DNA of 7,062 nt. Origin: a virus. Its lineage: Duplodnaviria > Heunggongvirae > Uroviricota > Caudoviricetes. The stretch covers positions 1 to 7,062 of IMG/VR virus record IMGVR_UViG_2579778797_000011; one strand, given 5' to 3'. Positions 3,001 through 6,000 of this stretch are shown here, piece by piece. Each line of letters begins with the position of its first letter. Position 1 is the stretch's first letter. A program made the position numbers.

Positions 3001-6000
3001 CTGCTCCACCACCCAGCGGTCACTCAGCTCCTGCTCCGGGTCCGCCTCCGGATTGCCCGCAACGAAATTCACCGCATCCAGAAAACGGGCATACACCCGG
3101 CGGCGGACCACCGTGGCCCCCACCAGGCTCTGCAAATCCTCCGCCATCCCGGTGACCAGACCGAACAGATTGGACACCGTCAGCAACGGTCTGGCACTGC
3201 TGCCCTTCCCGCTCATCTCAAAACCGCTACCGTCAATCGGGTATGCCTGATATTGCCGCCCCTGCCAGGTGACCGGCTCCCCTTTTTCATTCAGCTCATT
3301 GCAGAAAAAATACCGCTCACCGCCCTGCACCGTCAGGTCGATTTCCCAGAGCACCACCCGCGGTGACTGCTCTGATTTAACCGACTCGTTCAGACTTTCT
3401 TCGTGAATATCCTGCATATATCCGCCCATAAAAAAGGGGCGCAGACGCGCCCCGAACAATAAAAGTCCAATTTAAAATAAAACCAATAAAGGTAATAACA
3501 GAAAGTTAAATCAGCACATACCAGATGGCAATTGCTGATCGCAGTGACCAATGAAAACTGTGTTTTCATTGATACAGGCCGCCTGTAAGGGCAGACGGCC
3601 CGTATTTATTAACTTATCAGCAATAATCAGAACTGATAAGTCATACCCACAGCAACGATATTATCTGTCGCAACACCGGCTTTCCGGGTAAATTCACTTT
3701 CATCAATCAGGTTAATTTTATAATCAACATAGGTGGACATATTCTTGTTAAAGTAATAAGTCGCTCCGACATCAATATATTTAACCAGATCCTGATCGCC
3801 ATGGTTCACACCACCAACCATAACATCCTGTCCGCGGGACTGAAGGTAGGCCAGGGACGGGCGCAGACCAAAATCAAACTGATACTGCAGTACCGCTTCA
3901 AAGTTTTGCGCTTTATCTGCAACTCCTTTATCACCAAAGGTCGTCAGATTCTGAGTTTCGGAATATGTTGTAGCCAGGTAAAGGTTGTCAGCATCGTATT
4001 TTAGTCCGACTCCCCACATCTCAGCGTGTTTACCTTTTGCAACACTACCGGAATCAACAACGATCTGCTTTTCAGTCACTTTACCGGTTAAAGGATCAGT
4101 TTGTTCAATCGTCAGAGTACCATTCAGACCTTTTTCCTGATTATTGGTTCGGTCCGCATTAATATATGCGGCAACGATACCAAAACCTTCATATTCATAA
4201 CTGGCTGAGAAACCGTGACCATCACCATTAGCTTTCCGGAGATCACCCCGATCATTTTTACCCTGGTACTGTGCCGCAAAATTCAGGCCATCGACAAGCC
4301 CAAAGAAATCTGTATTACGATAGGTTAATACCCCGGAAGTACGGGCTGTCATGAAGTTATCGGTCTGGGTCCAGCCATCACCGCCAAACTCTGGTAATAC
4401 GTCAGTATAAGAACCAACATCGTACGCAATACCATAGTTACGACCATAATCAATGGTGCCAAACTCACCAAACTTCAGACCTGCAAATGCAAGACGGGTT
4501 TTATTACCCGCAGCACCCTCTGATTCAGCTTTATTACCAGAGAACTGATATTCCCACTGACCAAAACCAGTCAACTGGTCATTAATCTGAGTTTCACCTT
4601 TAAAGCCCAGACGTGCGTATGTCTTATCTCCATCATCCCCCTTATCACTGGAGAAATAATGGAGTGCAGTTGCACGCCCATACACATCAAGTTTATTGCC
4701 ATCTTTATTGTATACTTCTGCAGCCTGCGCCCCCGCTGCAAAAATTACAGCTGCTGCCACAGCTGAAAGTGCCACTGTCATTTTTTTCATGATTTAATCC
4801 TTATTTAAACTGAACTATTCATGCATAGAGATGTCATGAACAAAACTCAAAATATTGTAAATTAAATTACGGGTTCAATTTTTATTTTGTTTCAAAATGT
4901 AAAAAAACAACTTTGATAGCACTTTATGTCAAGACAAAACAAAAATAACAAGCAAGCAAATTAATAAACGATGCTTTTAGGTTTTTTCTCAAAAACTTAT
5001 CTTATTACCTGTTCCATCATACAACTGAAATCACTGTACCTGGCGTTATCTGTAATACTCCACTCCCGGCACACCACCCTGACCGTCCGGTTATGTTTCG
5101 GGGGTTTCCACAAAAAGGCACGGTAACCACCATGCCACGATAAAAATTCATCCAGCCAGCGCCGGGTCGCCTCATCCGTCACCCGGAACACCGCCTGAAA
5201 TGTCTTCAGTCGGGCATTCAGTCCCGTCGGTCGGCGCTGTTCATAACCGTCACCAAACCGGACCCTCACCACCGACGGTTTCTCACTCACCTGCATCCCT
5301 TCACGCGGGACCAGATGCAGCGTTTTTATCTCAGCCACTCAGCATTCCTCCGTCTCGTCGCATGGACAGCATCACCGCCTGCACCCGCTGGTCAATCAGC
5401 TGAACAAGGCTGCCTGCCGCCTCCGGCCCTATCTGACCGTTGGCCCCGTCATTCTGAATGGCGATATGGTAGACCGGGGAATACACCAGACCGGCACTGC
5501 CGTTCATACTGCCCACCGCGCGTACACCCAGCGAGCCATCCGCCGCCCGGGTCAGGGGCATTATGGCTTCAGGTCCTGCTTCCCCCATCAGCCCGGCCCC
5601 TTTTGCAAAGGCAAAGTACGTGGGCGTATCCACAATACTGTTGCTGTACGCGCTCAGGTTTGCCGAGGTATACACGCCGCCTTTTGCATTGGCCACCGCA
5701 CCGCCCAGCCAGTCACCAATGCTGCCAATAAATCCTCCCGCACCGGACATACCGTTTGCCGCCGTCTTAATTCCGTTGACAATCGCGGCATTCATAAGAA
5801 CTTTTGATATTTCCTGCAGTACGGATGAGGCCCAGTTGCGCCATTCCACTTTATTCCCGTTCAGCATCTCCGTGATGTTATTCACCATCCCTGAGATACC
5901 CTCCGTCGCCAGCTGTGCTGCCTGTGAGGCGTAATCGGATGCACTGTCCACCCAGTTACTGAGCCCCTCCTGCAGCCCTTTCTGCCAGTCCGCACGTTGT

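What the first reader, a model, noticed from the sequence alone, without database searches (positions are those of the whole stretch)
4888..4903. Near-consensus OmpR box upstream of the phage porin gene
The minus strand reads TTTACATTTTGAAACA, which matches the first 16 nt of the ompC C1 OmpR-binding site as I recall it. A second TTTACA-type repeat follows about 40 bp downstream. This would put the prophage porin under host EnvZ/OmpR osmoregulatory control.
Basis: partly seen in the sequence, partly recalled or inferred. Interest (0 to 1): 0.45.

Follow-up and report, generated by a model that had tools for sequence, protein, structure and literature searches.

The report
OmpR site before prophage porin gene
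A prophage carries its own outer-membrane porin gene between two tail genes, and just upstream of it sits a conserved copy of the DNA site bound by the host osmolarity regulator OmpR, so the phage porin is probably wired into the host's porin control circuit, an expected arrangement that has a known precedent.

Summary
On the minus strand, 4903..4888 reads TTTACATTTTGAAACA. These are the first 16 nt of the E. coli K-12 ompC C1 OmpR site, in the same orientation as the porin gene (3627..4790, minus) and 113 nt before its ATG.

The match is not chance:
- An OmpR matrix built without C1 ranks it first in the window.
- Equal scores in 0.54 Mb of enterobacterial DNA occur only upstream of porin genes.
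- TTTACAT is invariant in five diverged lineages of the same tail-M/porin/tail-L cassette.

Five nucleotides downstream in every lineage lies a conserved candidate promoter, TTGAAY-18(16)-TATTTT. This would put the site at about -61..-42, where the promoter-proximal OmpR sites of ompF and ompC lie.

The second TTTACA exists (4861..4856) but is specific to this lineage and lies in the promoter spacer.

Precedent: in K-12, OmpR ChIP-exo peaks on the corresponding box of the DLP12 prophage porin nmpC, where OmpR represses.

So OmpR control is well supported computationally. Its sign (activation favoured), the true start site and any osmoregulation are inferred. This is a new member of a known kind, of modest interest.

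The 3' UTR resembles the IpeX sRNA region of nmpC.

The parts
4884..4903 (-). 20-bp OmpR-type site TTTACATTTT|GAAACAAAAT, made of two 10-bp half-sites. Its first 16 nt equal ompC C1.
   Evidence: TTTACAT is invariant in 5 lineages.
4873..4878 (-). Candidate -35 hexamer TTGAAC, 5 nt after the site in every lineage. Alternatively it is the counterpart of the ompC C2b half-site.
   Evidence: ATTGAA is invariant across the five lineage representatives; one lineage-A allele, L095, reads ATTAAA. Best promoter-scan hit. Caveat.
4849..4854 (-). Candidate -10 hexamer TATTTT. The spacer is 18 nt (16 nt in lineage D). Predicted start near 4842.
   Evidence: AATATTTT is the longest invariant run in the intergenic region. 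Promoter scan. No experimental start site.
4856..4861 (-). Specific to lineage A and inside the candidate promoter spacer.
   Evidence: The matrix score of the surrounding 20-mer is only 5.1 bits.
4920..4934 (-). Conserved upstream island TCTTGACATAAAGTG. It always lies 29 nt before the site. Function unknown.
   Evidence: TCTT and AAAGTG are invariant. 25/29 match to the K-12 micF promoter region in lineage A only.
4812..4841 (-). Conserved leader blocks GTTCATGACA ... TGAATAGTTC. They form a weak hairpin (TTCATG/CATGAA). They also hold the alternative promoter candidate TTGTTC-18-AATAGT.
4798..4802 (-). Shine-Dalgarno AAGGA
   Evidence: invariant
3627..4790 (-). Porin gene, 387 aa, with an intact signal peptide and the C-terminal YQF.
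   Evidence: Pfam Porin_1, E 1.3e-140. NCBIfam OmpC subfamily, 496 bits against a cut-off of 484. 69% identical to NmpC-type and 56% to K-12 OmpC.
3430..3626 (-). 3' UTR with three hairpins, the motif CTGTTATTACCTTTATT, and a terminator (stem 3453..3436 plus a T run). It resembles the region downstream of nmpC where IpeX is encoded.
   Evidence: IpeX background
4997..5338 (-). Tail gene M (minor tail protein), the upstream boundary of the inserted cassette.
   Evidence: Pfam Phage_min_tail. In a phage without the porin, M and L overlap.
2719..3417 (-). Tail gene L, the downstream boundary of the inserted cassette.
   Evidence: Pfam Phage_tail_L

Best explanation
The 20-bp element at 4903..4884 (minus strand) is a real, selectively maintained binding site for the host response regulator OmpR. 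It consists of two head-to-tail 10-bp half-sites, TTTACATTTT and GAAACAAAAT, oriented towards the porin gene.

The site belongs to a self-contained inserted cassette (a 'moron': AT-rich regulatory region, porin gene, structured 3' UTR, terminator) that sits between tail genes M and L of a lambda-like prophage.

The most likely mechanism is as follows.
- Phosphorylated OmpR binds this single high-affinity, C1/F1-type site.
- The site ends 5 nt before a weak promoter, TTGAAC-18-TATTTT, with a predicted start near 4842.
- The site therefore occupies about -61..-42, the place held by the promoter-proximal sites F3 of ompF (-60..-41) and C3 of ompC (-59..-40).
- From there OmpR would recruit RNA polymerase and activate transcription of the porin in the lysogen, independently of the phage late operon.

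What is shown:
- the sequence identity to C1;
- the specificity of the matrix;
- the conservation and the fixed spacing;
- the cassette structure;
- OmpR occupancy of the corresponding box in nmpC.

What is inferred:
- OmpR binding here;
- the position of the promoter;
- activation rather than repression;
- any response to osmolarity.
For: - **Identity.** 16/16 identity to the footprinted ompC C1 site, in the same orientation relative to the gene.
- **Matrix rank.** With C1 left out of the matrix, the site is still the top hit of the window at 13.6 bits, above C1 itself at 12.3 bits.
- **Specificity.** In 0.54 Mb of enterobacterial DNA, all 14 hits of at least 13.6 bits lie upstream of porin genes on the sense strand.
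- **Distribution.** The same M-porin-L cassette occurs in about 110 of 5,426 complete E. coli genomes, with intergenic regions 100%, about 80%, about 76% and about 70% identical to the window.
- **Orthologous sites.** In every lineage the orthologous site is the best OmpR-matrix hit of the intergenic region, at 9.6-16.5 bits. It reads TTTACATTTTGTTACAT in lineage B, close to F1 and to the published motif GTTACATTTTGTTACAT.
- **Conservation.** With 37% of columns invariant among the five lineages, TTTACAT (7), ATTGAA (6) and AATATTTT (8) are among the longest invariant runs.
- **Spacing.** The gap between site and TTGAAY is 5 nt in all lineages. Indels occur elsewhere: 2 nt in the spacer, 6 nt in the leader.
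- **Promoter.** TTGAAY-18/16-TATTTT is the only promoter-like pair conserved in position in all lineages.
- **Geometry.** The gap is 5 nt from F3 to the ompF -35 and 4 nt from C3 to the ompC -35. These were worked out from the K-12 sequences and the start sites implied by the ChIP-exo table.
- **Precedent.** In K-12, the OmpR ChIP-exo peak at the DLP12 prophage porin nmpC is centred on CTTACATCTTGAAATAATCA, 90 nt before the nmpC ATG. This holds after my conversion of coordinates. nmpC rises 2.4-fold in the ompR knock-out. A 2024 paper lists OmpR as a repressor of PnmpC.
- **Single site.** A single OmpR site can activate the ompC promoter (title of Maeda and Mizuno 1990, seen; its content is from my own knowledge).
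Against: - No binding, start-site or expression data exist for this cassette.
- The promoter assignment is weak. The tool's consensus scan found no promoter.
- My scoring scheme ranks a false promoter inside C2/C3 of K-12 ompC (ATGAAA-17-TATCAT) above the true one. A local alignment places the phage ATTGAAC and AATATT opposite exactly those ompC half-sites. The conserved hexamers could therefore be OmpR half-sites rather than promoter elements.
- In the only characterised relative, nmpC, the box lies downstream of the start site and OmpR represses. That ChIP-exo peak is also weak (signal to noise 2.26 against 65 for ompC), and the nmpC box scores only 4.1 bits.
- Some alleles weaken the second half-site: GTTACGT, GTTGCAT, CTTACAT.
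- AT-rich upstream regions also attract H-NS, IHF and other OmpR-family regulators.
Confidence: 0.6

Rival explanations
1. An ompC-like array with a downstream promoter. Here the box is the counterpart of C1. The conserved ATAAATTGAAC and GAATTTGTATTAAAATATT are shortened counterparts of C2 and C3. The real promoter lies further downstream, for example TTGTTC (4843..4838) -18- AATAGT (4819..4814), giving a leader of about 17 nt. OmpR would then activate through cooperative occupancy of several sites, as at ompC.
For: - Lineage B aligns with the K-12 C1-C3 region better than all 1,000 shuffles. Lineages A and C give p about 0.01.
- The 20-mers 30 nt after the box start score 5.8-7.4 bits and resemble F3/C3.
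- The distance from the box to TTGTTC is exactly 60 nt, which equals three 20-bp sites.
- Two conserved blocks, TGACATC and ATAGTTCA, are separated by about 11 variable nt. They are also shared with nmpC and phage P7.
Against: - The -35 of this promoter is not conserved: TCGTTC, GCGTTC, CCGTTC, ATGTTT.
- Its score is lower than that of TTGAAY/TATTTT.
- No -35-like hexamer lies 4-5 nt after the C3-like element, as it does in ompC and ompF.
- A 2-nt deletion in lineage D and a 1-nt insertion in lineage E change the register.
- A family profile finds no significant similarity to chromosomal porin upstream regions.
Confidence: 0.2
2. OmpR binds the site but represses, as reported for nmpC. Transcription would start at or upstream of the box, and OmpR would block initiation or elongation.
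For: - At nmpC, the ChIP-exo peak is centred 43 nt downstream of the start site, and expression rises in the ompR knock-out.
- OmpR is listed as a repressor of PnmpC.
- The region from the box to the Shine-Dalgarno aligns collinearly with nmpC, though only at p about 0.03-0.08.
Against: - No upstream promoter is conserved in position. Candidates differ between lineages and lack the A at position 2 of the -10.
- nmpC lacks 11 nt between its TTGATT and TATTTA, so its layout differs from the one here.
- The fixed 5-nt gap to TTGAAY fits activation geometry.
Confidence: 0.12
3. The box is an inherited relic of an ompC-type upstream region, or the product of recombination with the host ompC-micF region, and no longer has a regulatory role. 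Alternatively, it is kept for another AT-tract-binding protein.
For: - With the box removed, the rest of the lineage A upstream region still aligns best with true ompC loci (Mann-Whitney p 4e-5).
- It shares 25 of 29 nt with the K-12 micF promoter region. Descent or exchange is therefore plausible.
Against: - A relic would decay. Instead TTTACAT is invariant while neighbouring columns fall to 60-70% identity.
- The half-site structure is kept through different sequences: GAAACA, GTTACA, GTTGCA, CTTACA.
- The position relative to TTGAAY is fixed.
- The comparison with ompC loci is confounded by their lower G+C.
Confidence: 0.1
4. A chance match in AT-rich intergenic DNA.
For: The region is 24.5% G+C, and T-rich motifs are common there.
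Against: See, and the conservation. For a 7-column window named in advance, the chance of invariance is about 0.37^7 = 0.001.
Confidence: 0.01

Closest known systems
E. coli ompC promoter, OmpR sites C1-C2-C3
   Same: - The first 16 nt of C1 are identical, in the same orientation.
- Five further upstream nt are shared in lineage B (CTTGnA).
- The gene is a porin of the OmpC subfamily.
- The core promoter is weak, and a site ends 4-5 nt before a -35-like hexamer.
   Different: - There is one strong site rather than three.
- The box is 113 nt rather than about 180 nt from the ATG.
- If TTGAAC/TATTTT is the promoter, the strong site sits where the weak C3 site sits in ompC.
- There is no micF gene (Rfam search negative).
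- The porin is only 56% identical to OmpC.
E. coli ompF promoter, sites F1-F3
   Same: - Lineages B to E read TTTACATTTTGTTACAT, close to F1 (TTTACTTTTGGTTACATATT).
- The gap between site and -35 is 5 nt, as for F3.
   Different: No F2, F3 or distal F4 equivalents were recognised, so the ompF repression loop has no visible counterpart.
nmpC (DLP12) and lc (phage PA-2) prophage porins with the IpeX sRNA
   Same: - A phage-borne porin with its own regulatory region. This is the closest characterised protein relative (69% identity).
- An OmpR-type box about 90-113 nt before the ATG. At nmpC it is occupied by OmpR in vivo.
- Shared leader blocks TGACATC and ATAGTTCA.
- A similar 3' UTR that ends in CTGTTAT..ATTACC..TTTATT plus a GGGGCG...CGCCCC terminator.
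   Different: - nmpC and lc lie near the Q/lysis region, not between tail genes M and L.
- The nmpC start site is upstream of the box, and OmpR represses there.
- nmpC has only 7 nt where this cassette has an 18-nt promoter spacer.
- The nmpC box is a poorer match (4.1 bits).
Phage morons such as lambda lom and bor
   Same: - Inserted between conserved phage genes that are adjacent in relatives.
- Lower G+C than the flanks.
- Has its own terminator and a likely own promoter.
- Encodes a surface protein.
   Different: The regulatory input appears to be a specific host two-component regulator.

Membership tests
OmpR binding site (EnvZ/OmpR regulon operator) | 20-bp site made of two tandem 10-bp half-sites with a (T/G)(T/A)(T/A)ACA core | tested here: met
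   The site reads TTTACATTTT|GAAACAAAAT. It scores 13.6 bits with C1 left out and 16.5 bits with all six reference sites.
OmpR binding site (EnvZ/OmpR regulon operator) | Match to an experimentally defined site | tested here: met
   16/16 to ompC C1 in the K-12 sequence and in a published C1 oligonucleotide.
OmpR binding site (EnvZ/OmpR regulon operator) | Score level specific to known OmpR-controlled promoters | tested here: met
   All 14 hits of at least 13.6 bits in 1.09 million positions lie upstream of porin genes on the sense strand.
OmpR binding site (EnvZ/OmpR regulon operator) | Conserved among orthologous promoters | tested here: met
   Five lineages and more than 17 alleles. TTTACAT is invariant, and the second half-site keeps an RCR core.
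OmpR binding site (EnvZ/OmpR regulon operator) | Placed upstream of and next to the core promoter, with the proximal site ending near -40 | tested here: inconclusive
   This is met if TTGAAC-18-TATTTT is the promoter (site at -61..-42). The promoter is only predicted, and a known false positive of the same kind exists in ompC.
OmpR binding site (EnvZ/OmpR regulon operator) | Physical binding of OmpR-P | not testable with these tools
   Only indirect evidence: a ChIP-exo peak on the corresponding nmpC box in K-12.
OmpR binding site (EnvZ/OmpR regulon operator) | Expression that depends on ompR/envZ and on osmolarity | not testable with these tools
   No data found for this cassette.
ompC-type promoter (C1-C2-C3 array) | Three contiguous 20-bp sites from about -100 to -40 | tested here: not met
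   There is only one strong site. The next best 20-mers score 5-7 bits. The region is about 12 nt shorter than C1-C3, and the box lies 113 rather than about 180 nt from the ATG.
Phage moron | Extra DNA between genes that are adjacent in related phages | tested here: met
   M and L overlap by 1 nt in Stx1 phage LC567819. Here about 1.6 kb lies between them.
Phage moron | Own terminator, and base composition different from the flanks | tested here: met
   A 7-bp all-GC stem plus T run at 3453..3430. G+C is 0.25-0.45 against about 0.6 in the flanks.
General bacterial porin, OmpC subfamily | Profile match above the curated cut-off, with signal peptide and C-terminal aromatic residue | tested here: met
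   Pfam Porin_1, 469 bits. NCBIfam NF007841, 496 bits against a cut-off of 484. The protein ends in YQF.
IpeX-like 3' UTR sRNA | Located directly after a phage porin stop codon, ending at the porin terminator, and similar to the DLP12 region | tested here: inconclusive
   The hairpin layout and 3' motif are shared with the K-12 DLP12, nmpC-type and P7 regions. Overall identity is low, the IpeX sequence itself was not available, and Rfam gave no hit.

The most novel reading that the evidence does not exclude
The cassette may be a complete 'porin swap' module plugged into the host EnvZ/OmpR circuit.
- A single high-affinity OmpR site in the promoter-proximal position would switch on the phage porin at low OmpR-P.
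- A weak F3/C3-like element that exactly fills the promoter spacer (about 4873..4854) would shut it off at high OmpR-P.
- The co-transcribed IpeX-like 3' UTR, which carries the micF-like seed TTATTACC, would silence the host OmpF and OmpC.

The lysogen would then replace receptor porins with a phage-encoded variant, which could exclude other phages and change permeability.
Probability: 0.15. Interest if true: 0.6.

Novelty: new member of a known kind. Interest (0 to 1): 0.35.

Why it matters
If confirmed, a widespread E. coli prophage cassette (about 2% of complete genomes) uses the host's own porin regulator to express a foreign porin in the lysogen. Outer-membrane permeability, antibiotic uptake and phage-receptor display would then depend on prophage content.

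It would also be a natural example of a single strong OmpR site placed where ompF and ompC have weak cooperative sites. This is a useful test of the hierarchical binding model.

The general idea, OmpR acting at a porin promoter including a prophage one (nmpC), is already established.

Tried and rejected
- **micF remnant upstream of the box.** Rfam found nothing. A profile of the 17 upstream alleles found no significant match in chromosomal porin loci. The apparent match of the M gene end to micF is explained by the native EQV(V/I) end of M. Two mutually exclusive alignments to the K-12 micF-ompC region both reached p 0.0005-0.005, so I treat shuffle p-values in this AT-rich DNA with caution.
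- **MarA/SoxS/Rob box in the island at 4934..4920.** The GCAC core is not conserved; it reads ACAC in lineages C and D.
- **A promoter upstream of the box.** No candidate is conserved in position.
- **The second TTTACA as a conserved site.** Not conserved.
- **Metagenome contig L184, which lacks the box.** Its upstream part encodes GH25/fn3 and HD-domain proteins and its coverage is 2.8x. It is probably a chimeric assembly and is not informative.
- **Leader hairpin.** It is kept only through one-sided changes, and its energy is no better than shuffles.
- **Long-range duplex predictions of the 3' UTR with ompF and ompC.** Only p about 0.02, and the method ignores intramolecular structure.
- **Literature.** Searches for this M-L porin cassette found nothing. 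The key older papers were not held.
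Full report
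**Observation**

The minus strand of the window at 4903..4888 reads TTTACATTTTGAAACA. The K-12 ompC upstream region reads TTTACATTTTGAAACATCTA. [quoted passage not shown] The first 16 nt are therefore identical to C1, and the last four of the 20-bp site differ.

It is the only exact copy in the window. For matches with up to three mismatches, 0.09 are expected. A second TTTACA lies at 4861..4856, 42 bp downstream.

**Context**

The box lies 113 nt upstream of a 387-aa porin gene (3627..4790, minus strand).
- Pfam Porin_1: E 1.3e-140.
- NCBIfam OmpC subfamily: 496 bits against a cut-off of 484.
- Identity: 56% to K-12 OmpC and 69% to NmpC-type prophage porins. No relative above 69% was found among the representative genomes of other species.

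The gene sits between lambda-type tail genes M (4997..5338) and L (2719..3417), downstream of the tape-measure gene. In a related Stx1 phage without the porin, M and L overlap by one base. About 1.6 kb has therefore been inserted here.

G+C falls from about 0.6 in the tail genes to 0.43 in the porin and 0.25 in the upstream spacer. A GC-rich hairpin plus T run ends the insert at 3453..3430. This is the anatomy of a phage moron.

The same M-porin-L arrangement is annotated in E. coli chromosomes. About 110 of 5,426 complete genomes hold the intergenic region.

**Is the box more than chance?**

I built an OmpR weight matrix from F1, F2, F3, C2 and C3, all verified in the K-12 sequence, leaving C1 out.
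- It gives 13.6 bits for 4903..4884. This is the best of 14,086 positions in the window and is above C1 itself at 12.3 bits.
- As a specificity control I scanned 79 enterobacterial porin loci (1.09 million positions). Only 14 positions reach 13.6 bits. All 14 are on the sense strand, 35-200 nt upstream of a porin start.

**Comparative evidence**

The intergenic region exists in at least five diverged lineages, with pairwise identity of 59-88%. I call them A (the window), B, C, D and E. Only 37% of aligned columns are invariant.

The longest invariant runs are:
- AATATTTT (8 nt);
- TTTACAT (7 nt, the first half-site of the box);
- ATTGAA (6 nt);
- AAAGTG (6 nt);
- the Shine-Dalgarno AAGGA.

The second half-site varies but keeps its form: GAAACA, GTTACA, GTTGCA, CTTACA. 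Lineage B reads TTTACATTTTGTTACAT, which is close to F1 and to the motif reported from ChIP-exo, GTTACATTTTGTTACAT. In each lineage the orthologous 20-mer is the best OmpR-matrix hit of the intergenic region, at 9.6-16.5 bits.

**Promoter geometry**

Five nucleotides after the box, in every lineage, lies TTGAAY. After 18 nt (16 in lineage D) comes TATTTT. This is the only promoter-like pair conserved in position. It predicts a start near 4842, a leader of about 52 nt, and the box at about -61..-42.

For comparison I used the K-12 sequences and the start sites implied by the ChIP-exo table:
- F3 of ompF spans -60..-41 and ends 5 nt before the -35.
- C3 of ompC spans -59..-40 and ends 4 nt before the -35.

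A C1/F1-type site therefore appears to occupy the place of the weak promoter-proximal sites of the classical promoters. A single OmpR site can activate the ompC promoter (Maeda and Mizuno 1990; title seen, content from my own knowledge).

**Caveat on the promoter**

The tool's consensus scan calls no promoter here. My scoring scheme, applied to K-12 ompC, ranks a false promoter inside C2b/C3b (ATGAAA-17-TATCAT) above the true TTGGAT-17-GAGAAT.

Local alignment of lineage B with the ompC promoter beats all 1,000 shuffles (A and C: p about 0.01). It pairs the phage ATAAATTGAAC with C2 and GAATTTGTATTAAAATATT with C3. The conserved hexamers could therefore be shortened OmpR half-sites, with the real promoter downstream (for example TTGTTC-18-AATAGT). 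The -35 of that alternative is not conserved.

In both layouts the box lies upstream of the core promoter, at a position from which OmpR activates at ompF or ompC.

**Precedent**

In K-12, OmpR ChIP-exo gives a peak at the DLP12 prophage porin gene nmpC (PMC5438342, supplementary table 1). I converted the coordinates to the current genome version using an offset of 777 bp, checked on ompF.
- The peak then spans L170 3884..3944. It is centred on CTTACATCTTGAAATAATCA (L170 3916..3897), 90 nt before the nmpC ATG. This is the positional counterpart of the window's box.
- The peak is weak (signal to noise 2.26) and lies 43 nt downstream of the nmpC start site.
- nmpC mRNA rises 2.4-fold in the ompR knock-out.
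- A 2024 study confirms the nmpC start site by 5' RACE. It lists CRP as an activator and OmpR, IHF and MprA as repressors (PMC11677980).

OmpR control of a prophage porin is therefore known, but in that case it is negative. nmpC has only 7 nt between its TTGATT and TATTTA, where the window has an 18-nt spacer. This fits a different promoter layout.

**Origin**

With the box removed, the rest of the lineage A upstream region still aligns better with true ompC loci than with other porin loci (Mann-Whitney p 4e-5). The lower G+C of ompC loci confounds this. The region shares 25 of 29 nt with the K-12 micF promoter region. A family profile finds nothing significant, and Rfam finds no micF. Descent from, or exchange with, an ompC-type upstream region is plausible but not shown.

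**Conclusion**

The OmpR-site interpretation is well supported by sequence, specificity, conservation, geometry and precedent.

My best explanation is activation of the moron's own weak promoter by OmpR-P bound at a single strong promoter-proximal site. I give about 0.6 to functional OmpR control, with activation favoured over repression.

The sign of control, the start site and any osmoregulation remain inferred. This is a new member of a known kind, of modest interest.

**Side observation**

The 3' UTR (3626..3430) shares its hairpin layout, the motif CTGTTAT..ATTACC..TTTATT and its terminator with the region after nmpC in DLP12 and in phage P7. [quoted passage not shown]

TTATTACC is complementary to the ompF ribosome-binding region GGTAATAA, as is the micF seed. 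If this RNA is functional, the OmpR site would also govern an RNA that silences the host porins.

Noticed in passing
window 3430..3626 (minus strand): The porin 3' UTR has three hairpins, then CTGTTATTACCTTTATT, then a GC-rich terminator. The same layout follows nmpC in K-12 DLP12, nmpC-type prophages and phage P7. This is where the sRNA IpeX, which lowers OmpC and OmpF, is encoded. TTATTACC is complementary to the ompF ribosome-binding region, like the micF seed.
   Followed up: partly
window 4920..4934 (minus strand): A conserved island, TCTTGACATAAAGTG (TCTT and AAAGTG invariant), always lies 29 nt before the OmpR box, although the DNA in between varies. In lineage A it matches 25 of 29 nt of the K-12 micF promoter (the Mar/Sox/Rob box region). 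The GCAC core is not conserved in other lineages. No function assigned.
   Followed up: partly
window 4812..4841 (minus strand): Two conserved leader blocks, GTTCATGACA and TGAATAGTTC, are separated by about 11 variable nt. TGACATC and ATAGTTCA also occur in the nmpC and P7 porin leaders. They can form a weak hairpin that is kept by one-sided changes only.
   Followed up: partly
window 4771..4777 (minus strand), porin codons 5-7: CAGTGGC is complementary to the first 7 nt of the K-12 sRNA RybB (GCCACTG). RybB represses many porin mRNAs through this 5' end (that role is from my own knowledge).
   Followed up: partly
window 446..2662: Directly after tail gene L there is a second accessory block: an Arc-like DNA-binding gene (1836..2126, +), a ClpP-like protease gene (2126..2662, +) and a P22-type antirepressor gene (446..1414, -). 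In other E. coli prophages L is followed directly by the C40 peptidase tail gene.
   Followed up: partly
window 4029..4044 (+ strand): TTTACCTTTTGCAACA is a 2-mismatch copy of the box on the opposite strand, inside the porin coding region (7.5 bits). It is probably chance.
   Followed up: no
L171 and L172, about 125 nt before the porin ATG: The porin genes of P1-like phages P7 and JL22 have a perfect CRP-type palindrome, TGTGATTTTGATCACA, followed by an OmpR-like half-site, CTTGAAACA. The regulatory input differs from that of the window's cassette.
   Followed up: no
L184 4600..4805: In this metagenome contig, similarity to lineage A starts only inside the promoter spacer. The box and TTGAAC are replaced by unrelated DNA next to GH25/fn3 and HD-domain genes. 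Coverage is 2.8x, so it is probably a chimeric assembly.
   Followed up: partly
window 4748..4765 (minus strand): The terminator scan flags a hairpin plus T run inside the signal-peptide coding region (CAGCTGTGGCAGCAGCTG). It is most likely a by-product of the alanine-rich signal sequence.
   Followed up: no
L002 1460..1500 (K-12 ompC): Method note: a simple -35/-10 scoring scheme ranks ATGAAA-17-TATCAT, inside OmpR sites C2 and C3, above the true ompC promoter. Promoter calls inside OmpR arrays are therefore unreliable.
   Followed up: yes
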